A DNA stretch of 64,000 bases from Lytechinus pictus (GCF_037042905.1 NC_087251.1:48610001-48674000); one strand, 5' to 3'; numbered from the stretch's first letter, positions 13,001-56,700 are shown. Notes: generated by a model not told the origin, from the sequence alone. Made by a program: numbers and translations.

Positions 13001-16000
13001 CCACCCACCTTTATTGTACTGGTTCTAAATGGGACCAACTGCTGCACCACCCTCACTCCTCTCAGACCTTCCCCTAGGGCGGGGTTCACCACTGTCAGGG
13101 TCACCATCTCTGTCTCATCACCTTCTGATCCACTAGCAGACTGAGAATACTTGTTCTCCGAGGAAGAAGAGGTGCATTTTCCCTCCCCCTCTCCAACGTC
13201 ACATTGTAGATTGGCAGAGCGCAATAGTGATGGTGAGATTTTTGCATGTTCATTGGTAAAATGCCTGAGCTTGGGGTCATTTACAGCTCCTCCGTCATTC
13301 GTCTTCCTGTCAAGAAATTAGAGAAAAAAATAAAAGAGAAATACAACAGTGGTATGCCTGTTTCATGAGACCTTTTATTTTATATTAAATTTCAATAGCA
13401 TCAACCTTAACCAATCAAGTTTCAGTAGCTTGTAAATTGCATCAATTAAGAAGTTCCTAAAATTACTATGGCTAACTTTTCCATTTTAAAAAGACATTAA
13501 TTAGTATTGCAGTGATTTATTTTCAAAAGAAATACTAGTTGAACCATGATGTTTTTGCTGGATAATACTTAAATATGTGTTAATGATGAAAACAATTAAG
13601 ATCAAATTTTTCTGAATATGAAGCCTTAAAATGTTTTGATAAATGCTAATTACAATCTTATAGGAAAGATGAAAATCTCGAAGATCCTACCAAGTATCCC
13701 ACCACCAGTGTTCCTTTCCAGCCAGCTCGGTGTATGTTACATTGATTCCTTGCTCCTTCAATAGACGGTTCATACGCCTACAAAGAGAGAGAGACAGGAA
13801 GACCCATAGAGATAGAGATTGAGAGAAAAGAAAAAGAGAAAGATAAGGAATAAATGCATTGAATACACACAATGTTATAGTATTCATGAAAGAAAGTCGA
13901 TCTGGAGATCTAGTAAGGTATCATAGACAGAAGGATATGGTGTTGCACCTATATAAGGAACAGTCAAAGTTACAAAAAAGATCAATTAAAAGTTATAAAC
14001 GTGTTCCAGACACATAAACATGCATTTCTGCCTTATTCTTTAAATGTTTATGTTATAATAGAAATAAATCAAGAGTAAATGTCAATATAATATCAACATT
14101 CTTCAATGTGTGTGTTAAGGTGAGATGAATGGGAACCCAGCAGGGATAATTCCTTGAATACACAATGCTGGAAATGGCAACTTGAGCTAACTCCAGAGTA
14201 ATGACAAAAGTGCTTAATGACAAAAGTGCGCCTTAGAATAGATAAATGGCGCATTATAAATGCTTATTAATATAATGAATGTGTAACAATTAGAATATTC
14301 AGGGAGCATATATCATGATGAATGTATTAATTCTATTGTTTTTACCTTACAAAGAACGGATGGACAGTTCTGTCTATGGCACCAATCCTGGTCAGGACTG
14401 GTAAACCCTAAAAAAATAATGATAATGAAAAAGAAAATAATAACATTTAGTAACATATATATATAGTGCGAAACCGAGATTTATTGATGATTTATCATAA
14501 CTTAATCACAAACACAATAGACAAATGACCTACCATTGTAAAGCTTAGAACCTCCTCTTTCATCTGATATTACTTAGATTATTTCTCATTCACGCATGAG
14601 TGAGCAAAAACAATTTGAAGAAAGGATTGTCATATCAGGGAGGGAAGCTTAAGAAAATACCCTTCCTGGTATGACTATCACAACAACTCCATCAACAATA
14701 TAAAACAGAAAAGAACGGAAATAGAGACAATAATTCATAAAATTACCTTGACACTTCTTTTATTACGCGAAGGTGCCCCCATGCGCTAACAAGAATCGCA
14801 CATGTTCATGTACATGACATAATACAAAAAACTAATTTGGCGGGGGGTATCTGAATTTAAAAAAGAAAATCACATGCCTAAAAAGTTCAATATTAGCTCT
14901 TTAATTTGATACCTTTATCACAAAAAATGGTCAAGAAGTAAAAAAGTTACGTTCTCTCGAAACAATGCTTGTATTTCCATAGTTTCATCAAATAAACGTG
15001 TTTTCACCGGTTTCCCACAGAAGCTATCGCATGGTTAACAAAAGACTTCATGCATGGCTGATCGTCAACAAAACGGAGTGTCGAGTGAGTTTGAACGCAA
15101 GCCTGTAAAACCTCTTCATTTTATGAAATTATTGAAATTCAAGCCTTATTTCAAATAACCAGAACTTTCTTATTTCTTGACCATTTTCTGTAATTGAGGT
15201 ATCAAATTAAAGAGCAGATATTGAACTTTTTAGAAATGTGGTTTTCTTTTTGAAACCCAGATACAGCCCGCCAAATGACTTTTTGGTATCCCCTCTTCAA
15301 ATTGTTTTTGCTCACTAATGCGTGAATGAGAAATAACCTTAGTAATTTCAGATGAAAGAGGAGATTCTAAGCTTTACAATGGTAGGTCATTTGTCTATTG
15401 TATTTGTGATTAAGTTATGATAAATCATCGATAAATCTCGGTTTCGTTTTTTTTGTGGGACGCACTGTATATCGCTAATACTTTGTTTCTAAACCCTTTA
15501 CATAATTATTATTAGCCTGTTCATCAGTTCCTGGCATGCCCGCAAACAATGTATGCACTTTCTCCACTCCCTAGGGAGCATCCCAACAAGAGTTCCAATA
15601 CTCTATTGCTTGGCTTTGGACCCTTCCAGGTACCCATTTAACATCAATACAAACACTCTAATTCTAAAATTAACAAGGCGCAGATACCATTCAAACATCC
15701 TTGCCATTATTTAGACACATCAAAAAAAAAACACACACACACAAAAAGAAAAAGCTTCTGAGTACAGATGAGTCTTCGAAAATGCTTTAGAATCACCTTA
15801 ATACACTCACATGATGTCTTTGTCAAATGAATTGATAAAGGTACATTAGTGTAATTACCTGAAGGTTAGAAATATGTCTATCTGCATCATTTTCAGCAAT
15901 ACAGGCCTGGATGAGAGGAAATTGGAAAGAAGCAACACAAATATGATAAGGAGAAAAATATTAGTTTGTGATATACATGCAGTCATACATAATATCACTG

Positions 16001-23788: not shown

Positions 23789-26700
23789 TTAGATTAGAAA
23801 ATTTAACGCATATTGTCGATGCTAAATGTCTTAAAGTCGAAACAAATATTTGAATAAAAATTATGTATTTTAATGGCGATAAGTCAATGGAAGGCGTTGG
23901 GGAAAGAGACAGAGGAATTTTAATCTTGATCTCAACGGAGAGAAAAGTTATTGTTCGTATTGGAACCTTTGAATGTATTCAATTGTCAAATCAAAAGACG
24001 CGCACGTGGCCCGATTTCTATGAACATCCTGTGCTAAATTGCTCTCCTCGATAATAGGTCAGGAGGGAGCGCGGATTAGACATTCCTCATGAAAGAGAGT
24101 CTGGGCATCTATTGTTCATGACTTGGTGGCATGAACAATAAAATGTAGTTGCTATCAGACAGGTGGCTACTTTGGTCGAAGATTATTCTTTTTAATACCG
24201 AAGCAGATAATAGGAATATTTCACCCCCATCATGAAATGTCCACATAGTGAATTTTACCTGTTATGTTTATCGTTCTTTCACTGTTCAGCTACGATTTTA
24301 TATCAAGTAGAGATCCCATTGGGCTTGCTGGCGTGTCAACGAAGACAGTTTTTTTTTTTTATATTCAAACCGCTTGCTATGCATGCTCGCTCGCGGAATG
24401 AATGAAGTCAAAAGTTTGAAAATAATCAATTATTCAAAGACATAATATGCAATGAGGCCCCTTTTCTTGTCTAAAATTGTCATTATATTTCCATATTTAT
24501 ATTGCATTATATTTTCCACACGAAAAAGAATATCCGGCATCTATTGTTCATTCTTTGGCATGAACGAGATGCATAGTTGGCCCAGATGTATATCCTTTCA
24601 TAGATGCGGCTACAAAGATCAGATATGATCATATTTCAAATTTTTTTTTGCGACCCTGACAAAATATGACCAAACTTTACACTGATTCATGCTTTAGAAC
24701 GATAGTTGAGTGGGTCGCAAATGTTTGTTGCCGACACTGGATAGAAATCGCCTACATTATCCAAAACAGTATATAGTTGAGTGCATCGCACACCACATAT
24801 CGTATCCAGGTTACGATTTTTCTAAAACATGTTTTGCATTACGACAATATTGACAAGAATTTAAATGACATAAAATTTACTCTGCACTAATAATTTTGTT
24901 TCCCCTATAGCGGTTGTTGCGGAATACCGCACATTCTGAAAATTTACAGGGTCTTATTTTGAAGACTACACGAATGTAAGGGTACGGTTGGCTGCACTGT
25001 GAAGATACATGGCTCTAATATATTATTGTATGTGTTTGCGTGGAGATCGCAGCTGTGCTGTGATTGGTCACTTGATCGACGACAATGCCCTTTTTTGGAA
25101 AAAGGTCGGTTTCAATTGCGTGTGTATAAACCCTCTCGTATTTCAGAGGAAATAACTTGAATAGCAAAATAGTATTTCATTCAAGAGAGCATTATTTTCC
25201 ATATTTCTGTATGTTAAATTTCATCAAAAGATACGTCATTTGAAAGGGTAAACATTGAACTTTCATTTTATCTTCTTAATTTCTTGGTATCTCTACAATT
25301 ACTCAGGTTATTTACTCTTTGAAATGTTCATGAAATCATAATTTTCTAGGTTTTACTTATTGAAAAAAACGATGAAAAATATTTCATCTTTTCTTAATTT
25401 TTCCGATTGCAAATATGAAAGGTCATAACATGATCATAAAGTCCATGAACCATGCATCATTTCATGTGTAGAAGGTTTGATTATACAACGTACGGGTAAA
25501 GAGTTATGACCGTTTAAAAATCAGTCTCTGCTTACGTTTCGGTCAATTTAGGATTCCCTCGAATACCCCTGGCACTAGAGGGGTATTGGGCCTGGCATAG
25601 TAAGAGTTAAAGCACTAAAAGCAAGTTTAATTATTATCATTCCTTACTATTAAAATTCTGCATTAAACATGATTTAAAAACTCTGAAACATCCTAATATC
25701 AATAAATATTAAGCACTAGCTTTTCATTTGTGATTGCGCGGTATTTTAGTTGCTTTTGTTATGTATGTTTTTTTTTTGCAATATCTCATGCTAATTAGTT
25801 GACTATAATAAAACTTACCTGCAGCTCTGATGTTACAACTAAAGACCTACAGGTTTGAAAAAAAGAAATCCTCTTATTAGATCGAGAGGCAGAGTAATGA
25901 TGCCTGAAGTACAATAAACAAAAACAAAGACTCTAAAGAAATAGTGATAAGACATTGCAGTGGTAGCAATTCGATCTTCAGATTCCTCATGCAAAATGTT
26001 GAGGCAGTGGGGGGGGGGCAATATGCCACCCCCTGTGTCTGATAGGGACAACATCCTTGTAGTATGGGTGCAAATCATGGTAAATAAAACATTGATTTCG
26101 TAACTCAAATAATATTCTGTTGATTTTATTGAATTGAGGAAAGAAAAATAGCCTGATATGAATTGGAAAAATATTATCATTTTCCCCTTTCTTTCTAGAC
26201 CGACTCATCTTCAAATGAAACAAAGTCAATGAGAGACCACACACAGTATTGCCAATTTCCTCTCGTTTTAACACTGCTGTATCAACCATTAAATGCTTTA
26301 TGGATTCACTATAAACAACTGCTCTTTTTTTAATAGTCATTTTACTAGACACTTTAGAACTTAATCACGCTATAAATAGGAGAAAACACAAGTCATTTAT
26401 TTACCTGTGAACCTTTAGCTCTCAAGCGAATGAAGATTGTGTGAATACCAACATCTAGAGGGATTGTAAACCTAACAATACAAAAATGCATAGAAAGAAG
26501 ATTGGGATCTAATCATAAGGCTCCCAAGGAAATTAATTAAATGAAAACAATAAAAAAAAAAATTTTATGGTTGAAATTCACTCTTCCTTCCCTATGCCCT
26601 TTTTGCCCTTTGTGTATTCAAAAGTATAATTTTCTTTTAAAAGTAATTATCATAATTCATTTAGGTGTGAAATTAGGCAAAGTAAGTGTACATTATCCTA

Positions 26701-29700
26701 TTTTATCATTTTGATTGTTGAAAAGATTAGGTGTTATATCCGAGTCCTCATTTGCCTCATGTCTGTATTACTGGACTAACTTTGTCGGCTAAGACCCAAA
26801 ATACACCCAAATCGTTCACTTTTTGAAGAAAGCGTGAAACTTTGCACATAATATCTATGATAATTAGGGATCATTAAAAAAAATGGATCCAAAAAAATAG
26901 CGCCCTCTGGCGGCCGCCATTTTGAATTCCAATATGGCCGCCAAAATTTTAACACCAGCGTACAAAATAGCTTATAACTTTCTTGTAAAACATGTTTTAA
27001 ACATGTATGAGGTATGGATTTAAAGAAAATTAAATTCTTAGCATAATGGAACCAATTAAGATTTTTTTAAAATTTTCGTTTCTATTGATAATGGGAGTAA
27101 AACCTATTTGTTTTACATTTTTTCTGAAAATTGCAGATTTACCATGAGATTCAAAATTCTATCAAATGATCATTATTCAACTAAATGTCATCAAATAAAT
27201 TAAAAAAAATATCCTCAAGTATGCTGAATAGATTGTGAAAAGTTGGTGATTATTACACTTTTTACCAAAAAGTTATAACCCTTGAAAGAGAGTAATGACA
27301 AGTTCTTCAGAATCACAAAAGTGAATAAGACATGCGCCCTCTGTTGTGGAGATATGGACAGCTGCTTCATTCTGGTTGGTCAAAAGTTTTGTTCATCTAT
27401 TGACATCTCTTGGCAGGCTACTCTGGTAAGTCTCTGCTAAGTTTAGCATTAACTCATGTAGAAAATGATATTTCAATGCTGTAGTTGTTATGAAACAATA
27501 CATTTTTATCAAGATAAATGCATATATTTCCAATATTTTTCATGTTAAATAGTTGTACTGTTCACCAGTCCCATCCAGTCAAAATCATGTCGGGTTGACA
27601 GAAGTGATGTTTGCACGTATGCCTAGATTTACATCGACCTGTAGGTCTACAAATATAGATCTATGATCATTCAGAAGAGTTTTTAACAGTCAAATGAAGT
27701 TGTATACATGCAGTCTCCACTGGTAATTTTGAAGAGAATTAAAATGTTGAGTCATCATAGATTTTTGTGATCTTTCAATTAGGCCTAAGCCTAAAGCCCT
27801 AAGCCTAAGGTAGTCTAGCCTAGCCTCGAATTCGGGATCATTAGGCCGAAGCCAGGATAGGATCCAGGCATAATATGGTATCATAGATTTCACTGAAATT
27901 GTGAATTCAAGAAAGGATTCACTAGAATACAACTATTATTGTCTCCTTTATAGAATAAATGTGGTGTAAAGTAATCAAAAGCATGTATATCTAAACTTAG
28001 TCTAGACCTACATCATTACCATAATGTTGTCTTGTAGACCTTGACTGAAAAAGCAATGGAGTTAATTCATTAAAGATAATTTAAGATCAATGCACAGCGT
28101 ATTTGAATATCATTCTTTTTGTTTATAAATATAAAAAAGTAGAAAATGTACCTACTCTAATCCATTCAGGACAGGAATGGTGTTGCAGCAGAGGCAATTG
28201 CCATTCCTTCCTCAAGTTGGCAACAATAGAAATTTCAATTCTCTTTCTAGAATACAGTGTAGACTATACCTAGTTCTTGAATGTCCGGACAGGTTGGGTA
28301 TCCAAACAATTTTAGTATTCTAATTTCAACAAGATGGCATTAATTATTTTATGAATTTCTTGAGAATTAATACTAGTATTATTCAAAATGAGATATATTC
28401 ATGATATTTTCTATTATCGGGTGCATCATTTTGGCAAAATTGAAAATAAAAACTAGACAATTTATTTTTGTTAAGCCTCTGGACACCCAACCCACATTCT
28501 TTTAATGCAATGGTACCCAGTTTGGTCTCCATTTCAGAAAAGCTTAAGAAGTTTATGAACATTTTTTTTCTCTCTTTCTGTTCATCAGATAGTGAAGAAG
28601 ACATACACCCTCTCTTCCAAAGACATGGACTTCTGGTTGGACACAATTAGGTAAGTTTAGCATTCATTCATCATAATGGTATCTTAAAGAAGATGCATAA
28701 GAGAAACAAAGAACAGTTGGGTATGATATATTTTCTTGAAATGGGGGGGGGGGGGGGAAGGGGGGAGGGTTTGATTAATCTAATATTGCATTCCATAAAG
28801 ATATTTTTGTATTCTTCGTCGTAATTGTGACAGGGCTTGTGTGAAATACAGCCTGTCATGATACACCACAAGATGGTCACCGTGCATTACACTATGATTA
28901 TATCGTATTTGCAGGGCTGTCAACATGGCGTGAGACATTTGAAGCTTAAGGCAATATTTTAGCTGCTAAGGTAGTACTTCAGCAAATAAATACAGAATAT
29001 AAACAATAGAATAAAGCCAAGAACTTTCCAACCAGCTGTATTAGCTGATACAAATGCCTTTATTCTTTAAAAATAAGCCATCCAAAAAGCTGCAGCAGCT
29101 GAAATAAATGCCTTTGTTATTTAAAAATAAGTTATTTCAAAATAAAACAAAGATCCCTGCCAATACACCCAGTAATAAAGAGAATTATTTTGACACTCAA
29201 ACGAATACTTTTTTAAGCAATAGATATCATTGTCTAATGAACAAAATATTTGATTCAGCTGTTGGAAGTATGCTTCATCTTTTTCATTCAAATCATTGTG
29301 TAAATTTTGTTTTAGTTGCCTGTTTCACCGTGCCAAGTAATATTTAAAATGTCTCACGCAGTGTTGGCAGCACTGCATTTGGCTAAAACCTTCATTGAGA
29401 AGTTTTTAACACTTTTTGCTATATTCTTACAAGTCTTTCACCATGATTATTGCTTATCGCTTTATCATAAGCCATTTCTTTTTTTTTTTTCCAGGATCAA
29501 GAGGAAGATAATCAGGGTTGAGAATAGCAACAGTTAGCAAGTGTGCCGATGTGCAGATGCTACCCACAGTCCAGCAGCACTTGTGTGATGCATGATGTCG
29601 AAGCTGTTCAGACTAGTAAAGCCTGGCGAAATGGCTGAAGTAAAGCGGCCGCCATTGGACTGGACCCTCTGCATTCTCTGTCAAGAGAAATCGTCTGAAT

Positions 29701-32700
29701 ATCTTACCCAGCCTTGGAAGGGTAGGGGGCGAGGGAATCATAAAGCTAAAGGGACAAGTTATCAGTCTTTCGCAACAAATCTGTTAAAATTTAAAGAACT
29801 AGGCAAAGTTCCTTTGAATGTTGTTCCTGAACAATTAGACGATGGGTCTGGCATTGAAGAGACATTACAAACGAACAAAGCAATGTGGCATAAGACTTGC
29901 CGGAATATGTTCAGTGACATGAGATTGGATCGGCAAATAGAAAAGCGTGAACTAGAACCAGACAATGGTATCAGCTGCAGCAGCAGAGTTAAAGTGAGAC
30001 GGACTAGTGTTCAAGACTACCATTCCACTGGACAGAAACAAGCTCTTTGCTTTTTCTGTGATAAAGAAGCTGGAACTGCAGGACTGCATGATGTTACAAC
30101 AACTGGGATAGACCAGACAGTTCGAAAGTATGCCACAGAGCTTCAAGATACAAGACTCCTTGCTAAATTGGCCCCAGGTGATATGATAGCACTGGATGCA
30201 AAGTATCACAAGACTTGCCTGTCGGATCTATACAACAGGTGAGTTGATTTATGAGAAATTGGTGTGAGGGGCGACCTATGATGATGTTTCATTGCAACAT
30301 GACATATAAGTAAAGGATTATGGAGAGTTTTAAATGTTGATAGCTGCCTAGATTGACAAAAAGTAGACACTGCCCACAAATCATGTGCCATGTTTTTATA
30401 TCTCTATGGTTGTAGTATTTTGGTGGGAAGAATAATGATTTCAAATTAACTTTCAAACAGTTAAATATAATAATACAAAGTTTACGATCATAGGAAAAGT
30501 GCATATCAGATTTTTTTTTTTTTTTCACAGACCAAAATGTTCAAATCTACTAACACTAACTGCACTCACATATTTGCAAATAACTAATGGTCAAATAGCA
30601 ACCTTCCAGAAAATTAGTAAAAAGTTTTCCTCAAATCTTTTGTTTCATACCAGGCTTTATATCGTTTGATGCTGATACATGCCGTCGATCGGCTGATAAA
30701 ACCTTGTATCTCAAATTTTTGTGAAAATGATTTTTTTTTTAAATATAAATGGGCATTTTCACCACAGATGGACACAGAGGCAAAAAAATCAAGTTGATAT
30801 TCATGTCAAATGCTTTATGTTTTTGACCTGAAGTTTCTGAGACAAATTTTTTTTCCAACTCTGGCAGCCATTTTTTATTTCAAAATGGCTGCCAAAGTAT
30901 GGATACAAATTAGTGTTGAAAATAGTATATTGATACATATTTTGTTTTGACAGATTTTTAAAGAACAGGTTTGATCATGATGTTTTGGCCTGTGATTTAG
31001 CTTGCTATTATAACAATTTTTAAAATCACACAGAAAGAAACACCAGTAATTCATTCATCTGATAAAAAAACATTGATGAAGTATGTGATATGGTATGTAA
31101 TGTCAGTTACCGAAAACATGAACTTTTTTTTCTCATTTCCTGGAAAAGAGGATATATTATAGGAAACTTGGTAGATTTCCTCTCTAGGTAACACCCCTCC
31201 CTTCTACACCAAAATTAAAGATTACCAATTAACAATGAAGCCATAGGGTACCATTAAATATATGTAATGTCAGTTACCAAGTGGAAAATGTAATGTCAGT
31301 TACCGAGATGTAATGTCAGTTACCATGATAAAACGTTGGTTACCAATATTGAAATGCAAATATGTGGCCAATTTTATGGTGAAGAAATATTGTATACTTG
31401 TTATTTAAGTCTTTCACTTTAAAAGTCACACCAGAAGGAGCTTGCTATTGACTTTTAAAAGGTATAGTTCACAAGGAATACTATATGAAATTATGAAGGA
31501 AGTTGCATTCCCATCGTGCAAAAAAAAATTACTATAAAATTGTTGTGTACATGCACTTACCAAGTACCTAATTGTTTGTATCAGACAATTTTTTGTTTGG
31601 TTTTCGGGGGGGGGGGGGTAGGGGGTACTTTTCCCAACCTATTGCCTAAATCTGCAACATTTTTTAAGCTTAACATTGTGATGAAGGGGATTTCCAGGGT
31701 CCCTTTTTAGTTTCTAGGATTCTTTTGAGCATTGCCTCGCTAAAAGTAAAAGAATTGAAATCCGACAGATATGAACAAGCATTGCTTGCACTGACCAGAA
31801 TAGAAATCAATAAAACTACATGGCTGCATGAGATTCTGGGGAGGGGTACATGTAGCCTAGGGGAGGAGACCCTTATTCATTTTGCCTTTTTTGAGGGGAG
31901 GGGGAGGTTGGAGAAGGAAAAGGTTTAAAAAGTCAATATAAAACTGATGAATATATTATGGGTGTATAGTCAGAAAAATCCATGTGTACAGTCAATGCAA
32001 TATTAAATTACTATAGGAAAACATGTAGCTGCTATGACCCCACCCCCCCCCCCCCCGAGTAAGTAAAACATACATTTCTTATCTTTTGATAACTAAAAAT
32101 GTGAAGTATTATGAAACTTTCATGATTTTAAAAAGCCTTACATATAAGTACCAAGAAAATTATGCCTTTGAAAATCATATAGCACTGGTAAATGTTAATG
32201 TGTATTGTCAGTTACCGACAAGTAATGATAAAAATGTTCAAATCAAAGAAAGGAATTAAGAAAAAGAATTTTTTTTTTCATTGAAATGTTCCTAAAAACT
32301 TGGGTATACTTCCACATCAAGCTCACTTTCATGTGAAGCCCTGCACAGAAGATACAATGCAATGATTCCACACATTTGACTTCCATGTGTTATCTCTATG
32401 GCAAATTGAGTGTAATGTCAGTTACCGTAATGTCAGTTACCAGCATGGTTGTGGAAAAATTATCATAGTCCCCAAAAGACAAAAACAAAATTTTTAATAT
32501 TTTGACACATCTTAAAGGAGAATGAAACCCTTGAAACCAGCTGAATCCATATCAAAGAGAAAAATCAAAGAAACATATTGTTGAAAGTTTGAGGAAGATT
32601 GAATGAATAATAAGAAAGTTATGAGCATTCGAATATTGAGATCACTAGTGCCATGTAGATCCTCCCAACGGCAATGCGACCAAGATCTGTGATATCACAC

Positions 32701-35700
32701 ACGTACAACTCCCTCATTACTTTAGTACTTATTTCACTTATATTCTCACTTTTATAGAGTCTATCACAAGGTGAGGTGTTCTCTTTATGAGAGGACAAGT
32801 ACAGAGGTTTCACAACATTATATCATTGATGAATCGTTTGTCATATGATTAGAATGAGCAAAAAGAGATGTTTTGGGGTATATTTTCAGTGTCCAAATGG
32901 GAGAGTTGTACGTGTGTGACATCACAGATCTTGGTCGCATTGCCAATGGGAGGATCTCCATAGCATTAGTGATCTCGACATTCAAATGCTCATAACTCTT
33001 TTATTACTAGTCCTATTTTACTCAAAGTTTTGTTGATCTTATTCTTTGATTTTTCTGCTTTCACAAAAGCTAACTTGCTCCAAGAGTTTCATTCTCCTTT
33101 AACCTAGTAACGGAGGTATATTTACATATTCAAATTATTACTCTATCTACTCAGGGACATGAGATATTTCAATTTTAATGAACACCCTGAAATTGCATGT
33201 CCTTTTGCGTAATGTCAGTTACCGACACATTTTTGCTTGCTGATGCGTTAAAAAATGTGGTTACATAGGAAAACTTGGTATCAGAGTATACAGCAAGGTT
33301 CACTTTATTAACTCTATCAGAAGCAAACTCCCATTATTTGTTGTTTTAGAGATACACACAATGAAAGGTGTGAAAACATTGTGCCGTGTAATGTCAGTTA
33401 CCGTGAAAATGCCCAAATGTGATGTTTAAGGTATAATTCATCTCCTGAAAACCCCAGGAGTTGTATATCTTTAAAAAAACCTTGTATCTCAACTTTTTAT
33501 TCAAATTTGGCCAAATGCACAGACCTCGTAACTCCATTTCCCGCCTTCTAAATTATATTTAGTGCATTTCAACCACTTCACATAATCGAAATGATTAACA
33601 AACATTGTCTAAGGTTCAAATAACATTGCCTACACACATGGTTTCTTGAAAGGAAGATTATTTTCTTCGTTTTACAAAAAATTTCGGGTTTTTTGAGATA
33701 CGAGGTTTTAACAGCCCATGAACGTTAGGTACGCTGGGTTGATAAAACCTTGTATCTTAATTTTTTGTGAAATCACTCTTTTTCAGGTTAAAATTACTCT
33801 TTTTTGTTCATGAATGTGAAGTGTAAGGTGTAATTTACCTTCTAATAGTCATAACAAAGAATGATGAGTTGCATATTCTTATAAAATATATCAAATTTCA
33901 TAATTTGTACAAAAACCTCCTATCTCATTTTATGATTTTTTTTCTTGTGCCAAAACCTCGTAACTCATTATATCCCCTTCACAATTATATATTGCACGTT
34001 CCAACCATCTCATATTAATTCAATTATCAAACATAGTATTCAGTTCAAATAACATAGAATATTCACATAATTTCTTAAAATAAGAAAGTTTTTTCGCTCT
34101 CCTGAAAATTTTGCTTTTTTGAGATACGAGGTTTTATCAGCCCATCGACGAATTGCGTTATCGTATCAAAGATCTGTGTGGTGGTGATATTAGAATATGA
34201 TATCAAAATTTGCTTTTTTTCAGAGGAATATATAAAAGTATGTACCCTCCCAGCACAAAATTGCAAAATTCCTTTTGGTGCTTAGGCATCGATAAATAAA
34301 TGCATGTAAAATTGTGTGTTTGCTTTTGAATGTCTGTGTTATATTTATGATTTAATATAAATGAAACATTCTAAACTGATCGTGATACAAAATATAATTG
34401 AAAATAAATAAAATTTTATGAAATTCATAAGAATATTTAAATTCTGAACAGATATTTTACAAAATGTTTTGGACTTCAAACTTCCCATTAATTTACGTTT
34501 CACATTCTCTCTACAGGTATAAACGGGTGAGAAACACAAGACTTCAAGGCTCTTCTGACAGTCACGACTCGTCCCATAAAAGTATCGCACTTGCGGAGCT
34601 GATCTCTTACATTGATGAAAGGAGGATGGTTGGGCCTAGTGTTCCTGTCTTCCGTCTTGTCGACCTTGTCTCTGTGTACACAGAGTGCCTGGTGGAACTG
34701 AGTCCGGACAATACAGAGATAAAGGTCAATTCAACCCGTCTGAAAGAGCGGCTCCTATTGCATTGTCCATATCTGAAAGCTGTGAGGCAAGGAAGAGATG
34801 TTCTCCTGACATACGACACTGCAATCGGAGATGCCATCCAAATGACATGCTTTGATGATGATGATTCTGAAGCGCTACAACTGGCAAATGCAGCTTTAAT
34901 TATCAGGAAGCAACTTTTCTCCCAAGGCAGAAAATTCAATGGATCCTTGATAAATGATTCAGCTGAAAACACAGTTCCTAGCAGACAGCTGGCACTGGTC
35001 AATATGATCCTTGATGGTCCGAGTATCAAGTCGCAGACGCGAAAAGATGGTTTGTCGACACGAGCAGCTCGAACCATTAGTGAACTCATAATATTCAATA
35101 GCATACAGGGCAATCGTGTGAAGAAAGATGCAGTTCGACATAACGCTGACAGAGAGGTCCCTGTACCAACTTACATAGGCCTGAAAGTTCATGCGCAGAC
35201 ACGAAATCGTGAATTGATTGACAGCCTCCACAAGCATGGATTGGCAATATCATATGATCGGGTTCTCAAAATATCATCATCTATCGCAAATGGCATCATC
35301 AATCGCTTTGAGGAGAATGGAGTAGTCTGCCCGCCTCAGTTGAAGAAAGATCTTTTCACGACAGGACAGGTTGACAACATTGATCATAATCCCAGCGCAA
35401 CGACAGCAGTTGGCTCTTTTCATGGAACTGCCCATTCCTTGTGTCAGCACCCCACTGAGAACAATCAAGGAACAGATGCTGACCCGATAGGTCTCGTTGA
35501 CATGGAGACAGGCAAGCGAATCCATCCTCTTCCTCTGGCATACACAAACATCTTGCCTGCACCATCAATGCCGAAGGAATACAAAGCACCAGTGACGTAC
35601 GGACCAATGCGACCAGATAGGGACAAGTTTGATGAAGACCGCATTAATGAGAAAAAATGGCTTGAGAAGCAGTTATCTTTGATGGAAGAAGGAGACCTTT

Positions 35701-38700
35701 CGGTTGGTGATTTTGTGTCATGGGCTGCATACCATGCAAATATGCAGATGCAACATACATGTAAGCTGCCGACTACAATTGCACTGATGCCATTATTTCG
35801 TGAAGTATCACACTCATTTGCAACAATAATGCATTGCATGTATACCAACCAACAAGCAACACACTTGTTAAACCCAGGACAAACACCAGTATTGACGATG
35901 GACCAACCTTTGTATGCCCTTGGGAAACAGATCCAGTGGCGATTCCCAGAGCGCTATGGTGAAGACAAGTATGTGATGATGTTAGGCCCTCTTCATATCG
36001 AAATGGCTGTCTTGAAAATGCTTGGTGATTTGCTGGATATGACTGGTTGGAGTAATGCTATCGCCCAAGCAGGAGTTGCTACACAAGGGACAAGGGATAG
36101 TTTCATTCATGCATCACATGTAGCACGGACAAGGAGAGCCCATCAAATTACTGCTTCTTCACTGTACATTCTCCAAAGGCAATCTTTCAGGAAGGAAAAA
36201 GAATCAGCCATCCATCAGTATCCTGTTGCCGAGGAGAGCTTCACAGAATGGTGTGAGCAGCGAAGCAAGTTCTACCCTATGTTTCGATTTTGGAGCACAG
36301 TGCTTGATCTAGAACTGACTTTGTTGGCATTTGTGCGATCGATTCGGACATCAAATTTTGAGTTGTACGCGCAGACATTGTCTCAACTAGCTCCATGGTT
36401 CTTTGCGCTAGACCATATCCACTATGCCCGTTGGATCCCTGTACACATTAAGGACATGGCAAGACTTGCCAAGCAGTGCCCAGATGTACATGAACACTTC
36501 ATGCGTGGTGCATTCACATCAAACAAAACTGGGAATCTATACTCTGCAATTGGTTTGGATCACGCGCATGAGCAGGTGAATGCTCAAGTCAAGGGTAACG
36601 GAGGAGCCATCGGTCTGACAGAAGATCCAGGTGCCCTACGACGATGGATGGTGGCAGGGCCGCATCTAGCCATGGTCATTGAAGAGTATGAGAGCAGTGC
36701 TGACAAGTCACCTGTGGATACTAATCCAAAGCATCATGAACAGAGTCCATCGGCGCAAAAATCCTTTGCTGATGATGTGCGATCCCTTGTTGCTGTAATG
36801 GATGAGTTGGGGAATCCATTCATGGATCGTTCAAAGGAATTGGTAACAATAGATTCACAAGAAGTCATGCCGCAGAAAGTTGTGGAGGGTATGGAGCAAG
36901 TTCACACCCTGGGAGAGAAGAAGTATGAAACCTTCATCGAGGAACGCCTCTTGAAAAACGAAACACCCATCAGTGCACCCATCAAACGAAATTCACTTCC
37001 ACTTTTCCGCAATCGAAAGCATGTGGGTCCATCCAAGGAAAAGCAGACAATAATAGATCTGAAGAGCGACTGCGCATTGTTCTCACGACTATACATTGCC
37101 AGTCAGACAAGAGGAGGTGACATCAAAGAGTTCTTCAAGCATGAAAACCAAAAATATCCCCCATCACTTTCTTCGTCTGGAACACTTAAACAAGGAACCA
37201 AATCAGATCTGGTTAGATTGCTAGAGACTCTCCTCAATACTCCGTCAGCTGTCACAAACACTCCATCTACAGATGTGACAATCCTTGATGGTGCGGCGCT
37301 TGTGCATCTGATTCCAGTAAAGGAATAAAAACCTTTGCTGAATATGCACAGGAAGTATTCATCCCGCACATCTTGTTTGAACTTGGAAAGGTCAAGCGGG
37401 TTGATCTTGTTTGGGACGTGTATCTCAAGAACAGTTTAAAGCTTTCAACAAGAGCAAACAGAGGTACAGGCACAAGGAAGAGGGTGTCTGGTAATGTGAA
37501 GCTTCCAGGGAACTGGAAAAACTTCTTGCGGAATGATAACAATAAGGATGAACTCTTCCAATTCCTAGGACAACAATGTGTTTCCAAGGACACAGGTGAC
37601 AAGGTCATCATTTCCACCCTACTGGACTCTGTTGTCACCTCTAGAGAGGATTACACCACAGATGGACTTCAACCATGCTCGCATGAAGAAGCAGATACGC
37701 GTATCCTTCTTCATGTCAAAGATGCTATGAACTGCGGGTTCAAGAGAGCAATGATACGAACTGTTGATACTGATGTTGTTGTGCTCGCTCTTGCCCATTT
37801 CCAGGACTTGCCAGACATCGAGCAACTCTGGATAGCTTTTGGAACTGGCAAGGATTTCAGGTACATTCCAATCCATGAGATTGCCCATGCAATATCCCCA
37901 GAGATGGCCAAAGGATTGCTTTTCTTTCACGCATTCACTGGATGTGATGTAACATCCTACTTCGCCAACCACGGGAAGAAATCTGCATGGAAAACTTTGC
38001 TTGCATGGCCAGATATCACCAACACGTTTGTTGCACTGTCACGGCCGTGTACAGCACAACTACCAGATGAAGTTGTTCTAGAACTTGAACGATTCGTTGT
38101 CCTGATGTACTGCCGGACCAGTGATGAGACTCGTGTCAATGAAGCCAGAATGGAACTTTTCGCAAAAATGAAAAGAAACATTGAGAACATCCCTCCCACA
38201 AGAGCTGTCTTAGAACAACACATCAAGCGATCAGCTTACCAGTCAGGCCATGTGTGGGGACAATCACTTGAAATACAACCTCAAATTCCTGATGTCACTG
38301 AATGGGGGTGGGAATCGACCGAATCAGATGGTTTTGTTCCTAAGTGGTCCACCTTGCCCATCGCCGAAGCAGCTTGTCTTGAATTAATTTCCTGTAACTG
38401 CATCAAATCTTGCAAGGGAAACTGCAAGTGCTTCAAGACAAAGCTGGAATGTACTGCACTTTGCAAATGTGGAGGGGTATGTTATAAGTAGGAGATCAGA
38501 ATAGATAAATGTGGACAGGACATCCTTATCCCTTATTTTTCATCTATACCACAAAAATCTCGACAAACATCTCATCAACAGTGCAGTTAATTGTTCGCTG
38601 ATTATTGGATCCTCTGCAAGACACTCCAAGGTTAGCCAACATCCTTACCTGGGAATCCAACTGTCTAACACTCTTATTTTGGGTATGTCAATGCCTAATG

Positions 38701-41700
38701 GTTGCACTAGCGCGGACTACATGGTGGCCATCTGAGAATCCTCTGATTTTGACACAACCAACATTTTTCAAATCACCAAAATTGATATATAAGTTTGAAC
38801 TGTGTGCTTGTCTTCGTGCAAATATAGGTATTAACAGGTTTGCAAAAAGACTATATTGTGGCTATATGGTGAAATGAGCTCATTTGAAATATGTTCAAAG
38901 GTATCATGATCATTGGCATATCGTATATTGTCACATATATTGTGTAATAGCAAGGCGGCCATCTTGAAATCAAATACCGCAGATGCAAGTTCTGACATTG
39001 GCAATGTTTTTTTAGACATCGAAAACACTTGAACTCCTAAATATGGACAGAGGGTATGTTGATTTCTGCAGCCATATTTGAATTCAAAATGGCGGCCCCA
39101 GAGGGTGTTATTTCTTAATTTCAATTTTGCAGACTTCTGATATAGATTATGATAATAAGTAATAACTTTCTGGACAAAAAAACACAGGAATAGTCGTTTA
39201 GATTTAACTCCAAGGTGAAATAGCAAAAAAAAAAAAAACCTGCACAAAACGAGCGCAAAAGTAATTTTATTTTGTCGGCCATCTTGGAATTCAATATGGC
39301 GGACCTCTGACATAGATTTTAACACTGCCATCATGTTCCTAGACACTGAAAACATGGGTAAAGACGTTTGAATCTCAGTCCTAGGTGCAATAGAACAGGA
39401 GATATGGCCAAAAGTATTATGATTTTGGCGGCCATATTGGAATTCAAAATGGCGGCCCCCAGAGGGCGCTTTTTTTTTTTTGATCCATTTTTTTTTACAA
39501 TCCTCATGTATCATAGATACCATGTGCAAAATGTCATGCTTTCTTCAAAAAGTGAACGATTTTGGTGCTTAGCCGCTCTAGGGGGGTTTATGCATTTGCA
39601 GTTTTTATCAATTATCATATTTCACACTCACCAGAATTCATCCCTTCTATATACATCAGCTGCAATAAATACTCCATCCAAAAAGAAGGTATGCACACCT
39701 GTTAATCAAGAAGGAAGAGGAAGAAAATAACCTTTTTAATTATCAACCTTCTAATACACTGTATATATCAAAATATTGCTTAAACATCAACCACAACAAC
39801 AATAATGCTTAAACAGCAAAATATTGCTTAAACAACAATAATGCTTAAACAACAAAATATTGCTTAAACAGCAACCACAACAACAATAATGATAACGATA
39901 AAGCAGAAGGCTGTTTTTGTCATGTTTATTTTTTTTTATAGGCCAAGTGCCTGAATTTTTTTGTTGTTGTAAACAAACATACATGTATATGTTTTCTTAT
40001 CTTACACTATTTTGTATGTTAGACATGTTATTTTATATGCCAACGTCATCTGAACTTTTATATGTGATCCATTATATCATGAATGTTTTGTTATGTATAT
40101 TTTCAATTCAATTCAAATTCAATTTATTCTTGATAATAATAAAAACATCATCAAATTGTACATTCGTATATAGAAATGTCATTACAAGAAAAGGAGGGCA
40201 ACAAAAAGTTTACACTTGAAAATAAGAAGCCTCCAAAGAATACAGTAATTAATATATGTACACATCAGATGAAGAGTGGGGGGGAAACGAAACATGCTCA
40301 TTCACACACAGACACATCCACCGAGAAACATCGTCATCATCACACACAAAAGCACACCCGAACATCCATCATCTTGGTTCATTCATTAACAAAAATAATA
40401 CATATATAAATGAGGTGAGTTTGAATTCAAATTAGGAATAGGTACTAATAATGATCTTTTTGAGTTTGCATTTAAACGAAGAAACAGTTGAACATGAAAA
40501 AAGGCATACATTGAGATTATTCCAGATTCGTGGTCCGGTAAACTTAAAAGAGTTCAGAATTAAGGTTGAAGCTGTTTTAGGGTAATGAAAGCTATTAGCA
40601 GAGCGAGTATTGTATCGGTGAAAGTCGTAGTTATATTGAAAAAGATTGATGATATTAATAGGAGCATATCTATATATATCTAACTGCCTGCATAAGTGTA
40701 GCAATCTTAAATTTATGAATATCGTAGACTGTCATTGTTTTTAATCTAAAAAATAATGGCCCTGATGGTGTCAGATATGGAGAATTGGTGCAAATGCGTA
40801 GTGCTTTTTTCTGGAGTTTGTGGATACAATCCAATTTAGTTATTCCAACACTGGCCCATGTTATGTTGCAATATTGAATATAAGGTAGAATCAAAGAGTT
40901 ATATAGCATAATTAACTTCTTTTCAGGTAATATGGATTTCAATTTACACAGTATTCCTACACTTTTGGATATTTTGTTACAAATATGTATACGATGATTA
41001 GTAAAAGTTAATTTATCATCTAAAATTATACCTAGAAATTTGACTTTTTTAGTTACATTCAGAATTGTCGAACCTAGTTTTAATTTAACAGCAGATATAT
41101 CATACGAAATGTTTGGTTTACAAAAATACATAACATTGGTTTTATCATAATTTATTATTAATTTATTGGCTCCAAACCAGTCTGTCACTTTGCATAACTC
41201 TTTCATAGTTTCATTTAAAAGTTCATTAAAATTACTATGTGAAGAAATTATATTAGTGTCATCTGCGAAAAGTATAAAGCGAAAAAAAGAAGATACATAA
41301 CATAAATCATTGACATACAAAATGAATAAAAGTGGCCCCAATATTGAACCTTGCGGTACTCCGCATTGAACTTTAGAATAAGAAGATTGACAGTTATTAA
41401 AAAAGGTGAATTGATATCTATTGTTTAAGTAACTAAAGAACCAATCCCATGCTATGCCCCGAATACCAAAATGTTTTAATTTATACAGAAGAATTTTATG
41501 ATCAATAACGTCGAATGCTTTGCTGAAATCAAGGAAAATGCCAAAAGAGTGTAGATTATTTTCAAAGGAGTTAATAAGTACATTATGTAAATCAATATTA
41601 AAGAGCATGTTCACATGAGTGTCCTGGTCTGAAACCATATTGGGCATTATTTAGTAATTTGTTTTTGTTTAAATAACAAAGTGTTCTATTGTATACAATC

Positions 41701-44700
41701 TTTTCCAATATTTTCGAAAAACAAGGTAGTAAAGTTATTGGTCTGTAATTCGAAAAGAGATGTTTATCACCTTTTTTGTGTACAGGGATTTTTTACCTAT
41801 CTTCATTTTGTTAGGGACTTTACCGGAACAAAAAGACAAGTTTATGACATGAACTAGTGGATCAGCTATAAGTTGGATAACCTTTTTGACTAAATTAGTA
41901 CAAACATCATCAAAACCTGTACTATCAGTACTTTTGAGCTTAGTTACAATATTTATTATTTCATTAGCATTTGTTGGATTTAAATATAACGATTTACTAC
42001 AAGGATTCTTTAAATATGAAGTAAATTTAGAAATGACTGATTTGTCCAACTTTGAACGAGCTAATAAAGCAATATTAGAAAAATATATTAAACTCTTCAA
42101 CAATGTCTTCATCTCTATCTATTTTATTACCATCTTTTATGAAAAATGAGGGGAAATCAGACTTTTTGCCTTTGCCAATTAAGTTGTTTAAAATTTTCCA
42201 TACCTTAGAAAGATTATTTTTATTTGCTTGTAATAATTCGCAATAATATTGCTTACGGGCAAGCTTTAGTGTATTATTTAATATATTACGATATCTTTTT
42301 AATTTAGTATGCGATTGAACATCACATTTAATACAAAATATCTTATAGAGTCTATTTTTCTTATTAATACATCTTAGAATAGAAGGAGATACCCAAGGTT
42401 TCCTTGGAACATATTCTTTTTACGACATTTCTTTTGACACTTTTTATCTACAGCTTCATTGAATTTATACAAGAATCGTTCATAAGCAAAGTCAACATTG
42501 TCAAATAATAATACATCAGTCAAACTAATCTCAGAGAGATCTTTTTTCAAAGCATTGATAGTTGTAGAGTTTATACATTTCATAGTATAATTTGACTGAT
42601 GTGATCTAAAAGCATTCTCAATGCGTTTATTTTCAGTCATAGAAAAAACGGGTAAATGGTCAGTGATGTCATTATATAGGATACCAGCTTTAACATTTTT
42701 ATCACACACATTTGTAAAAATATTATCAATGAGAGTCATCGATGAGTTATTGATTCGAGTGGGTCTATTGATTAGGGGGCGAAAAGAGTTATCGTAAACA
42801 ATATTTACAAAGTCATTTATATAATTTACAGTTAAAGAATTCATTAAATTAATGTTAAAGTCTCCCATTATATAGGTTTCTTTACTTTCATTTGTTATTG
42901 TACGTAAACATTCGTTCAGAGCTATATTGAAATCATAAATGTTTATATGTGGGTCTCTATATACGACAGCAACTATGATATTTTTATGTTTAGGTATACT
43001 TATCTCAATAAAGAGAGATTCACAAAGGTTGAGAGATAAATGAAGATCTTGTCTCTCAATAACATTGAAAGTATTTATATGTATAAACATCGCAACACCG
43101 CCACCTTTGCTTTTCAATCTATCACTATGAAAAAGAGTATAATTATTAATATGAAATAACGATAAGGGTGTTCGCTCATGTATCCAAGTCTCGCTAAATC
43201 CGTACACAGAAAATTGACAATTTAGTTCGCATATGAAATCATGAATTGTATCAAAATTCTTATACATGCTTCTTGAATTGAAATGGATTAAACTAAGATC
43301 AAATTCAGTTGTCAATCTCGTTTCTTGACTTGCTTTAAATTCTTCAGGTAGCCAATACTTATTATTGACATCAAATATATCGGCATTCCGGTCAGGATCG
43401 ATAGTATCAATTAGATCATCAAAATCACTGTTTTCATCATACAAAATACTATCATCAATCAAGGTATTTTCATTGTGGAATAGATTACCAAACTCACAAT
43501 CAGAGATATTACTATAGAAACAGGAAATCACACACTTTCATCACCACTCACTAAAATGTAAAAATAACAAAAACAATATAGCCTAGGTTACTACTCGTTA
43601 TAAAAAAGGAAACATCTAAGATTATATAGAAATCGAAATATCATTAAAAAGCAAATGCCAGAGGGAAATATGGTGTGTAGTTATTTATGGTTTATACTTT
43701 TCATTGATTGTTTATAATTTGTCCAGATTATAAACAATCAATGAAAAGTATGATGAAAAGGATCAATAAAACATGAATTACAAAAAAAAAACAATAATGA
43801 TAGCATTGAAATTATGAATTAAATGTGCATTTCCTGCATGGAAATTCTTTTGAAGTGAAATAAGGATTTTTTTCATATTTTCATCAAATGTGGGGGTATT
43901 ATGGTCTAATGGTCAAGACTCTCATCTTTCAATCTGAAGGACGTGGGATTGATTCAAAGCCATGGCGTGTTTTCCTTCAGCAAAAAATTTACCCACATTG
44001 TGCTGCACTCAACCCAGGTGAGGTAAATGGGTACTGGCAGGAAGTAATCCCTAAAAAAGCTGTGTTCACCAGAATTGGTAGACTAGCTTAGCCGGGGTAA
44101 CGTAGGAGTGCCTTGAGCACCTAGCTAGATGGATACATGCGCAATATAATGTAAATGCTATATTATATTATCAAATCCAGCTTTACTTGTCGATGCTAAT
44201 GATAAATTCAATAGCTTCCTCTTTCTCCTACTTTCTAAGAACACAGATAAAAAATGATAAAGTTATTATCACAATTACTGAGGTGTATCATAATGATAAA
44301 TACTTGATATGAAAATGTGTTTTGCGCCTGGGGGGGGGGGACCACTTCCATTGACAAATGGATACCATGCATGACCAAAAAAACACGTAAAAAGGATCTC
44401 TTTTTCAAGATAGGGCACGTTACGTACGTAACATAATATGGGTGTCAAAAACACTAAAATAATAAAATAAGGGTATATATTTCGCTAGGAAACTACATGT
44501 ATACGGTCCAATTTGCGAGGGTATAAAGACTAAAATATCTTTTTGCCCCAACACTATGTGTTTAAGGTCCGATTTGAGCGAGGTGTTTGGGTGGTACTAG
44601 AACCAACGAAAGTCAAGGTAAAGCTGACGTCCGTGATCACGATCGTGATTTGTACTTGTTTATGGGGTCAGTTCAGGGAATACTTGTCAAGGGTACTGTT

Positions 44701-53700: not shown

Positions 53701-56700
53701 TGCTTGATTTTTTGACACTCACTGTCAGTTTCTATTGCTGATATTCATCATCATGATCATATAGGTCTAACTTGTCTCTAAAGTAAAATTAAATTCGTTT
53801 TTCTAAATTAGAAAGAGAGATTGTTAGGTGACAATTCAGACCAACTTTGGTATACAAAAATCAAAATCTTTAATTTTGAGCATATTTTTGTGTTGGCCCT
53901 GTATTGGTGGAAAGTTAAAGGAGAATGAAACTCTTGGAGCAAGTTAGCTTTTGTGAAAGCAGAAAAATAAAAAAATAAGATCAACAAAAGTTTGAGTAAA
54001 ATAGGACTAGCAATAAAAGAGTTATGAGCATTTGAATGTCGAGATCACTAATGCTATGGAGATCCTCCCATTGGCAATGCGACCAAGATCTGTGATGTCA
54101 CACACGTACAACTCTCCCATTTGGACACTGAAAATATACCCCAAAACATTTCTTTTTGCTCATTCTAATCATATGACAAACGATTCATCAATGATATAAT
54201 GTTGTGAAACCTCTGTACTTGTCATCTCATAAAGAGAACACCTCACCTTGTGATAGACTCTTTAAAAGTGAGAATATAAGTGAAATAAGTACTAAAGTAA
54301 TGAGGGAGTTGTATGTGTGTGATATCACAGATCTTGGTTGCATTGCCGATGGGAGGATCTACATGGCACTAGTGATCTCAATATTCGAATGCTCATAACT
54401 TTCTTATTATTCATTCAATCTTCCTCAAACTTTCAAAAATGTGTTCCTTTGATTTTTCTCTTTGATATGGATTCAGCTGGTTTCAAGGGTTTCATTCTCC
54501 TTTAAGTATTTACTTTCCACAAATACAGCCTTCACTGTACAGGGCCCACACAAATTTTAAAATACTGTATGCTCAAAATTTAAGTTTTTGAGTACTCTGG
54601 TAGTGGTAAAACAAAAATCCCTAAATTAATAGTGATAAAAAATCATAATTGTATGGAACAGAGTATTTTTCATAACAAAATATATATTTCAAAGACTTTT
54701 TAAATATTGCTTGTTGCATGAATCTACCCATCTACAAAAGTACAACACTACTTATATTATAAGTTACAACTCACAACAGTCACTGAAAATAATAACTGGT
54801 GCAGTATACAGTGCGTCCCAGAAAAAACGAAACCGAGACTTAGCGATGATTTATCATAACTTAATCATAAATAAAATAGACAAATGACCTACCAATGTAA
54901 AGCTTAGAATCTCCTCTTTCATCTGGTATTACTTAGATTATTCCTCATTCACGCATGAGTAAGCAAAAACAATTCGAAGAAAGGATGCCAAAAACTCATT
55001 TGGCGGGGGGTATCTGAATTTCAAAAAGAAAATCACATGACTAAAAAGTTCAATATCTGCTCTTTTCTTTGATACCTTAACCACAGAAAATGGTCAAGAA
55101 GTAAAAAAGTTATGATCCCTCGAAACAATGCTTGTTTTTCCATAATTTCATTAAATAAACGTGTTTTCACCGGTTTCCCACAGAAGCTATCGCACGGAAC
55201 AAAAGACTTAATGCATGGTTGATCGTCAACAAAACGGAGTGTCGAGTGAGTTTGGACCCTTGCCTGTAAATCCTCTTCATTTTATGAAATTATTGAAATT
55301 CAAGCCTTATTTCAAATAACCAGAACTTTGTTATTTCTTAACCATTTTTTGTAATTGAGGTATCAAATTAAAGAGCAGATATTGAACTTTTTAAAAATGT
55401 GGTTTTCTTTTGAAAACCCAGATACGGCCCGCTAAGTGACTTTTTGGTATCCCCTTTTCAAATTGTTTTTGCTCACTCATGCGTGAAAGAGAAATAAACT
55501 AAGTAGTTTCAGATGAAAGAGGAGATTCTAAGCTTTAAAATGGTAGGTCATTTGTCTATTGTATTTGTGATTAAGTTATGATAAATCATCAATAAATCTC
55601 GGTTTAGTTTTTTCTGGGACGCACTGTATAACCCTGCCCTTGAAGCACTACAGGTAGAATGTGGTGAAAGACCTTTACAACTAAGAAGAGAACTGTCTGT
55701 TGACAAATACATGTTTTATCTTTTAACAAACAGAGATAGTCATCATCCTACTTTAGAAATTATTGAACCTTCCTGGTATATTGATCAATTTACTTGGAAA
55801 TCAGGTCGTGGACCCTTTGTAGCCGGAGCATGTAAGCCAAATGAAGAGATCCAAATTGAACAACTAAACCAAAGAATATTACGAGAACCTTTTTGGTCAT
55901 ATGGAATACCTAATATATCTTACTATATCCATTTAGATTATCAATAAACAACGTAACTTGGTACAAGATATGAAAAACTGTGTCTCAGAAAGGATACATA
56001 CAAAGATGGAAAGGTTACTTAAAGATCTACACTGATGGATCAAAACAAGAAGACAAGAGAACCGGCTCTGCTTTTTATATACCAGAACTGGATATTAAAA
56101 GATTCAATAGATTAAATTCTGGAAGTATAATGAGAGCCGAATTAACAGCAATGGTAATGGCACTTGATTGGCTAGGAGATAACAGAGGTATGTCCGTGGT
56201 CATTTTTACAGATTTGTTGTCTGCTCTTCAAGCACTTGAAAGCAATCGTATACAAAACAATCTTATTGTTGATATCTTGTATAAAATCAAAGTTTTACAA
56301 TCATCAGATATTTATGTCAATTTTGAATGGATACCATCCCATTGTGGTATTCACGGGAACGATGTGGCAGACCTTTTAGCAAAAAAAGGAGCATCAAAAG
56401 AACAAGTTGAAGTAAACATTCCATATATCAAAGAGGAATGGAAAACCCACATGTCTTTGATTTAGAAAGAAATCTGGCAGGCTCTATGGGTATCCTCATC
56501 TAAAGGAAGACATTTATTTAGCATCCAACCCAACGTGGCAGATACAATTAGTTATCAAGGTCTCATTCGGTTTGAAGCGACTATGATACACCGTTTAAGA
56601 CTCGGAATATGTAAATTGAATTATTATCTGTATAAATGTAATCAACATGAAAATGGTCTATGTTCCCATTGTCAGGTTCCTGAGACAATAGAAGATTTTT

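What the first reader, a model, noticed from the sequence alone, without database searches (positions are those of the whole stretch)
26781..39580. Near-intact Academ transposon: DDE-like transposase fused to an XPG/FEN1-type nuclease and Cys8 finger
Seen: TIRs of about 165 bp bracket a spliced ORF of about 1530 codons with two N-terminal Cys/His fingers, transposase-like acidic motifs (VDNID, MDQP, LHIEM, HEQVN), a PIN/H3TH nuclease motif set (DG, WD, HEEAD, DTD, TGCD) and a terminal Cys8 cluster. Established: this is the AcademX architecture, a superfamily whose mechanism and nuclease role are, to my knowledge, biochemically uncharacterised. Inference: a single-base repair gives a candidate full-length enzyme. 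The insertion expanded an intron of about 360 bp to 13.2 kb and ends 51 bp from the exon 8 donor.
Basis: partly seen in the sequence, partly recalled or inferred. Interest (0 to 1): 0.72.

Follow-up and report, generated by a model that had tools for sequence, protein, structure and literature searches.

The report
Dead AcademX copy with clipped ends
This is a broken copy of a known but little-studied animal jumping gene (Academ) whose single large protein is predicted to join a cut-and-paste enzyme to a second DNA-trimming nuclease; this copy has lost both tips and its reading frame, while two sister copies elsewhere in the genome keep both.

Summary
The element is real and fits AcademX. Five sister copies in the genome (99.2-99.6% identical) have TAG...CTA ends and 3-bp target duplications; two keep an open frame. 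Models from an open sister give a P-element-like DDE core (Z 12.0) and an EXO1/FEN1-family nuclease (Z 15.4) whose nine key residues are kept in 112 of 112 aligned proteins. Two motifs match a published Academ profile by eye. The window copy is not near-intact: besides the one-base frameshift it lacks 8 and 3 terminal bases, has no target duplication, carries a 2.7-kb nested element, a 730-bp deletion and an Ala-to-Arg change at a conserved site. The Cys cluster has nine cysteines in CXC spacing. The left end is 10 bases longer than the right in 6 of 6 copies. Most likely the nuclease cuts the second strand (about 0.4; untested). The scan already reported the intact sister copy and AcademX in several other genomes, so this is a new, dead member of a known kind.

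The parts
26786..26955 (+). Left terminal inverted repeat, lacking the 8 terminal bases of the family
   Evidence: Alignment to right end; six sister left ends begin TAGTGGAG
26794..26803 (+). 10-nt spacer present only in the left end (one helical turn)
   Evidence: 10-nt difference in 6 of 6 two-ended copies
28843..28844 (.). Site of a 730-bp deletion private to this copy
29595..30238 (+). Coding exon 1: two CxxC...HxxC putative zinc fingers
   Evidence: Open frame; homologue alignment; donor AG|GTGAGT in the copies shown (output partly cut)
30239..34516 (+). Intron of the transposase gene (about 1.6 kb in sisters, 4.3 kb here)
   Evidence: homologue P0003 and family L015 are uninterrupted here
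30751..33414 (.). Nested high-copy non-coding DNA transposon, GGGCATTTTCAC inverted ends, AAAT duplication; itself holds a 590-bp foldback element at 32512-33102
   Evidence: (402 candidates, 40 of 40 scored match)
34517..38491 (+). Coding exon 2 (transposase core, nuclease, CXC), broken by a one-base deletion after 37325
35373..36572 (+). Predicted RNase H-like DDE core with large helical insertion: Asp 35373, Asp 35901, His 35994, Asp 36558, Glu 36570
   Evidence: Conservation; model of the C6 sister pLDDT 90.3; VIA Z 12.0 to P element transposase
36093..36095 (+). Arg codon at a position that is Ala in 105 of 116 aligned proteins
37275..38330 (+). Predicted EXO1/XPG/FEN1-family 5' nuclease; first Asp (37287) lies before the frameshift, the other catalytic residues (37415-37948) after it; right boundary approximate
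38393..38482 (+). Nine-cysteine CXC (tesmin/TSO1-like) cluster
   Evidence: Atlas first hit named Tesmin/TSO1-like CXC, score 0.96
39414..39580 (-). Right terminal inverted repeat, lacking the 3 terminal bases; no target duplication follows
39632..39698 (-). Host exon upstream of the insertion; donor 51 bp from the element end
   Evidence: Sequence, exon scan; join not shown by RNA
26406..26471 (-). Host exon downstream of the insertion; gene likely an alpha/beta hydrolase, antisense to the element
   Evidence: Sequence; a same-strand exon at 17283-17441 matches Abhydrolase_1, E 3.9e-6; same-gene assignment inferred

Best explanation
The window holds a dead, end-clipped copy of a recently spread AcademX-type DNA transposon, whose intact sisters encode one protein predicted to join a P-element-like DDE transposase to an EXO1/FEN1-family nuclease that likely cuts the second DNA strand during excision. 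Steps: (1) shown: the family has TAG...CTA ends of unequal length, makes 3-bp duplications and spread in a near-star burst; (2) predicted from folds and conservation: both active sites are intact in the family; (3) inferred: zinc fingers and CXC bind the ends, the DDE core nicks the 3' ends and joins them to a target with a 3-bp stagger; (4) inferred, about 0.4: the fused 5' nuclease frees the 5' ends at the branched junction, the job TnsA does in Tn7; (5) inferred, about 0.6: this copy lost both tips in one end-specific event (excision with trimming and rejoining, or capture at a break) rather than by random decay. Identity as AcademX about 0.93.
For: Five sisters with identical termini and 3-bp duplications TAT, CAA, TTA, ATA, AAA; two other families in the genome also have TAG ends and 3-bp duplications. 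14-27 private substitutions per copy in 8,116 columns, one shared group only. Core model: top VIA rows P element Z 12.0 (rmsd 5.7, 347 aligned), ISCth4 8.4, Hermes 8.3, RAG1 6.8; D-D-E kept in 115 of 116. Nuclease model: EXO1 Z 15.4 (rmsd 3.7, 262 aligned), then XRN1, GEN1, XPG, FEN1 at 12-13; seven acidic residues plus Lys and Arg kept in 112 of 112. Published Academ profile starts qfDNwD and has gffHie at 220-225, against QVDNID and GPLHIE here. AcademX = nuclease, 3-4 bp duplications (passage in PMC10045372). TnsA cleaves transposon 5' ends (passage in PMC9527255). Clipped ends: 0 of 11 sister ends are damaged; the copy has only 4 internal deletions.
Against: No activity was measured. Foldseek gave no core match at E <= 0.001 (best Hermes E 0.033) and ranked XRN1/XRN2 RNA exonucleases first for the nuclease, so the substrate is not fixed by fold. 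Pfam and PDB sequence searches gave no significant match for the element's own protein. The closest cores (P, hAT, RAG) cut both strands without a second nuclease (recalled), so the nuclease may not be needed for this step. AcademH moves with a helicase instead of a nuclease. The Academ profile was compared by eye at two motifs; the third was not read (part 20 of the file held another profile). The empty alleles come from organism B, whose relation to the window's species is not established, and the clipped copy is a single case.
Confidence: 0.75

Rival explanations
1. The nuclease acts after excision: it resects the donor-site break so that the gap is copied back from the sister chromatid, which raises copy number. 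The helicase of AcademH would serve the same pathway.
For: Best structural match is EXO1. Long-range resection is done by EXO1 and BLM-DNA2 (start of abstract PMC7303207). AcademH carries a helicase; that it is RecQ-like is recalled. Loss of flanking host DNA at the window's left end would fit resection.
Against: EXO1, XRN1, GEN1, XPG and FEN1 lie within about 3 Z units. Host cells have their own resection enzymes. The family is low-copy (7 left ends).
Confidence: 0.25
2. The nuclease shortens the target stagger, which sets the 3-4 bp duplication of AcademX against 9-10 bp in AcademH.
For: Suggested as a correlation in PMC10045372 (passage). 7 of 7 two-ended, tip-intact copies examined in three families have 3-bp duplications.
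Against: After strand transfer the target's 5' ends are joined to the element, so a 5' nuclease has no free target end to trim (inference from the chemistry).
Confidence: 0.12
3. The clipped tips of this copy are two ordinary, independent deletions after a normal insertion, or assembly errors, and say nothing about mechanism.
For: The right junction has TA microhomology next to a CTA-CTA repeat. The copy is the most diverged of six (27 private changes). No reads of the same individual were available.
Against: Four deletions totalling 746 nt over about 10.1 kb give at most about 0.07 per end and about 0.005 for both (my arithmetic); 0 of 11 sister ends are hit.
Confidence: 0.35
4. The window copy is one base away from an active autonomous element.
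For: Only one frame-breaking change; all catalytic codons are present.
Against: Both termini lost, Ala-to-Arg at a conserved site, nested insertion, 730-bp deletion.
Confidence: 0.05

Closest known systems
Academ superfamily, AcademX lineage (Kapitonov and Jurka 2010; Kojima 2020; neither held, known here through PMC10045372 and PMC5751038)
   Same: Terminal inverted repeats, 3-bp duplication, one protein with DDE core and nuclease; DNxD and xxxHie motifs of the published profile
Drosophila P element transposase (PDB 6p5a), with Hermes/hAT, ISCth4, RAG1/Transib
   Same: RNase H-like core with a large helical insertion between the second Asp and the Glu; a conserved His 31 residues after the second Asp, possibly the His of the C/DxxH signature (inferred)
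   Different: About 8% identity; GPLH instead of C/DxxH; PMC9587614 does not list Academ among C/DxxH superfamilies; none has a fused 5' nuclease (recalled)
EXO1/XPG/FEN1/GEN1/XRN 5' nucleases
   Same: Fold (Z 12-15.4) and a full acidic set plus a Lys-x6-Arg pair (mapping to FEN1 residues recalled)
   Different: 9-14% identity; fused to a transposase and followed by CXC; substrate unknown
Tn7 TnsA/TnsB
   Same: Functional analogy: a DDE enzyme paired with a second nuclease for the 5' ends
   Different: Two proteins; TnsA has a restriction-enzyme-like fold (recalled; title); no homology claimed

Membership tests
Academ / AcademX | 3-4 bp target site duplication | tested here: met
   3 bp in 5 of 5 two-ended sisters; absent in the window copy itself; criterion from PMC10045372
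Academ / AcademX | Encodes a nuclease rather than a helicase | tested here: met
   EXO1/XPG/FEN1 fold, Z 15.4; catalytic set in 112 of 112
Academ / AcademX | Transposase core similar to the Academ RNase H profile | tested here: inconclusive
   By-eye agreement at profile positions 1-6 and 220-225, spacing 220 against 207; 4 of 94 file parts read; no score computed
Academ / AcademX | Terminal inverted repeats with TAG-type termini (terminus rule recalled) | tested here: met
   11 of 11 sister ends; not met by the clipped window copy
Academ / AcademX | C-terminal cysteine cluster (recalled) | tested here: met
   Nine Cys, each conserved in at least 95% of 112 rows
Academ / AcademX | Match to Repbase or Dfam Academ entries | not testable with these tools
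   Neither library is held
DDE/RNase H-like transposases | RNase H fold with D-D-E triad | tested here: met
   assignment of the catalytic Glu (36570) rather than Asp 36558 is inferred from helix position
AcademH | Helicase and 9-10 bp duplication | tested here: not met
   3-bp duplications; no further ORF of 150 aa or more on the coding strand in the first 9.9 kb of the C6 sister
Autonomous active copy | Intact termini and open frame | tested here: not met
   Window copy fails both; C6 and C7:41.69 Mb sisters pass both

The most novel reading that the evidence does not exclude
AcademX is a single-chain eukaryotic counterpart of Tn7's TnsA/TnsB pair: a P-element-like DDE core on two unequal ends cuts one strand and a captured EXO1/FEN1-type nuclease cuts the other, and this copy, clipped at both tips with flanking DNA lost, is a footprint of that nuclease overshooting in an aborted excision.
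Probability: 0.25. Interest if true: 0.7.

Novelty: new member of a known kind. Interest (0 to 1): 0.3.

Why it matters
No Academ transposition assay was listed by seven searches of the held library, so how a transposase uses a fused 5' nuclease appears open. The genome holds natural copies with intact ends and open frames, which makes the question testable without any repair. The window copy is the wrong reagent, but its clipping at both ends is a clue to end processing. The effect on the host gene is probably small (antisense, intronic) and was not measured. The scan has already flagged the intact sister, which limits what this finding adds.

Tried and rejected
Pfam on the three window ORFs and on the intact sister: nothing significant; weak DUF6589 in two homologues only. 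PDB sequence searches, single and profile: nothing. Foldseek on the core: no match at E <= 0.001. Atlas on exon 1: no usable hit; this region was not folded. Idea that the left flank is the end of another TAG-type element: rejected, the flank is single-copy (at control level, 83). Empty site within the assembly: none, both flanks match once. No RNA holder listed on record. Raw RNA on the element's exon 2: depth about 0.5-2 in X24 (organism B) and near 0 in X21; not used as evidence. No joint across the element among the 15 of 450 joints shown. Shared ancestry of the window and C4 copies: no shared substitution. Kojima 2020 and Yuan and Wessler 2011 not held. PMC7351741 passages gave nothing usable. 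No complex prediction was run.

Full report
Observation. The inverted repeats are real: 26786-26955 aligns with 39414-39575 at about 87%, with a 10-nt insertion on the left. The ORF has two coding exons, 29595-30238 and 34517-38491, about 1,540 codons. The join is GT-AG and in frame, and homologue P0003 runs through it without a break. One base is missing after 37325 relative to all five sisters. The host donor lies 51 bp from the right end on the minus strand, in an intron of 13,160 bp. The exon number and the host join were not verified.

The family. A search with the right end found five more two-ended copies and one left end alone. The copies are 99.15-99.63% identical. All 11 sister ends are TAGTGGAG or CTCTACTA, and 5 of 5 two-ended sisters have 3-bp duplications. 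Private substitutions number 14-27 in 8,116 shared columns, with only one shared group: a recent, near-star burst. Exon 2 changes against the majority are 16 silent and 39 replacing, as expected of neutral decay. Two sisters (C6; C7 at 41.69 Mb) have open frames in both exons; three have stops or frameshifts, and one of these also lacks exon 1. Three further, more distant families with open frames of 1,498-1,689 codons exist; the two whose ends were found have TAG termini and 3-bp duplications.

The window copy is the damaged one. It lacks 8 terminal bases on the left and 3 on the right and has no duplication. It carries a 2,664-bp high-copy nested element and a 730-bp deletion. It has five replacements in exon 2, including Arg where 105 of 116 aligned proteins have Ala. 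Contigs of two runs of organism B lack the element here and show 30 letters before the junction that are not in the window (best match 10 mismatches). This suggests loss of host DNA at the left end, but organism B may be another species: its pieces of the element differ from the window by about 3-6%. With four internal deletions in about 10 kb, two independent hits on both tips would have a chance of about 0.005 at most, so an end-specific event is more likely. It is one case, and assembly error was not excluded.

The protein. The sister's exon 2 found 320 proteins at E <= 1e-20 among 7,989 scored candidates; the 120 listed are 40-78% identical, and the few named ones are mostly marine animals. 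I aligned 112 and 108 of the 120 for conservation and 48 and 46 for folding, leaving out mostly short ones and thinning for size. The core model (pLDDT 90.3) gave only weak Foldseek rows, led by Hermes and P element; the wide search ranked P element transposase first (Z 12.0, rmsd 5.7, 347 aligned), then ISCth4, Hermes and RAG1. The D-D-E triad is kept in 115 of 116 rows. The nuclease model (pLDDT 92.0) matched EXO1 (Z 15.4, rmsd 3.7, 262 aligned), XRN1, GEN1, XPG and FEN1; Foldseek put XRN1/XRN2 first. Seven acidic residues and a Lys/Arg pair are kept in 112 of 112 rows. The tail has nine cysteines in CXC spacing. Pfam and PDB sequence searches gave no significant match.

Mechanism. Shown: ends, duplications, copy history, damage. 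Predicted: two intact active sites. Inferred: the DDE core nicks and transfers the 3' ends with a 3-bp stagger. For the nuclease I favour cutting of the non-transferred strand, as TnsA does in Tn7 (PMC9527255 passages), at about 0.4. Resection of the donor break to promote copying from the sister chromatid follows at 0.25; it would explain why the sister lineage carries a helicase, since EXO1 and BLM-DNA2 are the two long-range resection routes (PMC7303207, start of abstract; RecQ nature of the AcademH helicase recalled). Shortening of the duplication (correlation noted in PMC10045372) seems least likely on geometric grounds. The left end is 10 bases longer than the right in 6 of 6 copies and in family L015, but not in L017; I saw the insertion and took the helical-turn reading from earlier scan notes.

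Comparison with what is known. PMC10045372 (passages) states that AcademX makes 3-4 bp duplications and encodes a nuclease. The Academ profile in the supplement of PMC5751038 (parts 1, 2, 10, 20 of 94 read) begins qfDNwD and has gffHie at 220-225, matching QVDNID and GPLHIE by eye. PMC9587614, PMC4455052 and PMC10799480 were read as passages. Kojima 2020 and Yuan and Wessler 2011 were not held. Searches listed no Academ activity assay; I saw listings only, and most subscription journals are not covered.

Verdict. A real, dead member of a known lineage. The scan's earlier notes report AcademX in at least seven genomes and, by position, the intact sister at C7:41.7 Mb. What this copy adds is the clipping of both tips. 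Interest 0.3.

Noticed in passing
L007/L008 (C4 copy), element position about 2345: The 2.3-kb deletion that removes exon 1 in the C4 copy ends within a few bases of the site where the window copy holds its nested element; the two copies share no substitution.
   Followed up: partly
L015:356-7859, L016:2379-7448, L017:473-9812, L018:2563-7539: Three more Academ-like families with long open frames; L017 has 675-bp symmetric inverted repeats, L015 has unequal ends.
   Followed up: partly
window 26913, 38955, 39081, 39428-39456: Repeated GCCGCCATTTTGAA/AAAATGGCGG words in and near both ends, resembling YY1 sites (consensus recalled).
   Followed up: no
window 27425, 28591-28651, 29497: Candidate splice sites for non-coding upstream exons of the element, present in the sisters shown; part of this region is an old internal duplication.
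   Followed up: no
L009 (C31 copy) and L007 (C4 copy): Other nested insertions of 2,985 and 3,694 bp; three of six two-ended copies carry one.
   Followed up: no
L011:545-3202 (C29): A left end that stops after 2.66 kb with no right end within the 19.8 kb fetched.
   Followed up: partly
window 40670-43537 (-), 55585-56855 (+), 59381-59981 (-): Broken ORFs that look like endonuclease/reverse transcriptase/RNase H pieces of non-LTR retrotransposons (by eye).
   Followed up: no
window 11100-13100 and 61212-61620: Two tandem arrays (about 138-bp units); the first was covered by an earlier scan note.
   Followed up: no
P0084, P0103: Two homologues are labelled as from a bacterial metagenome-assembled genome, probably host-animal contamination (inferred).
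   Followed up: no
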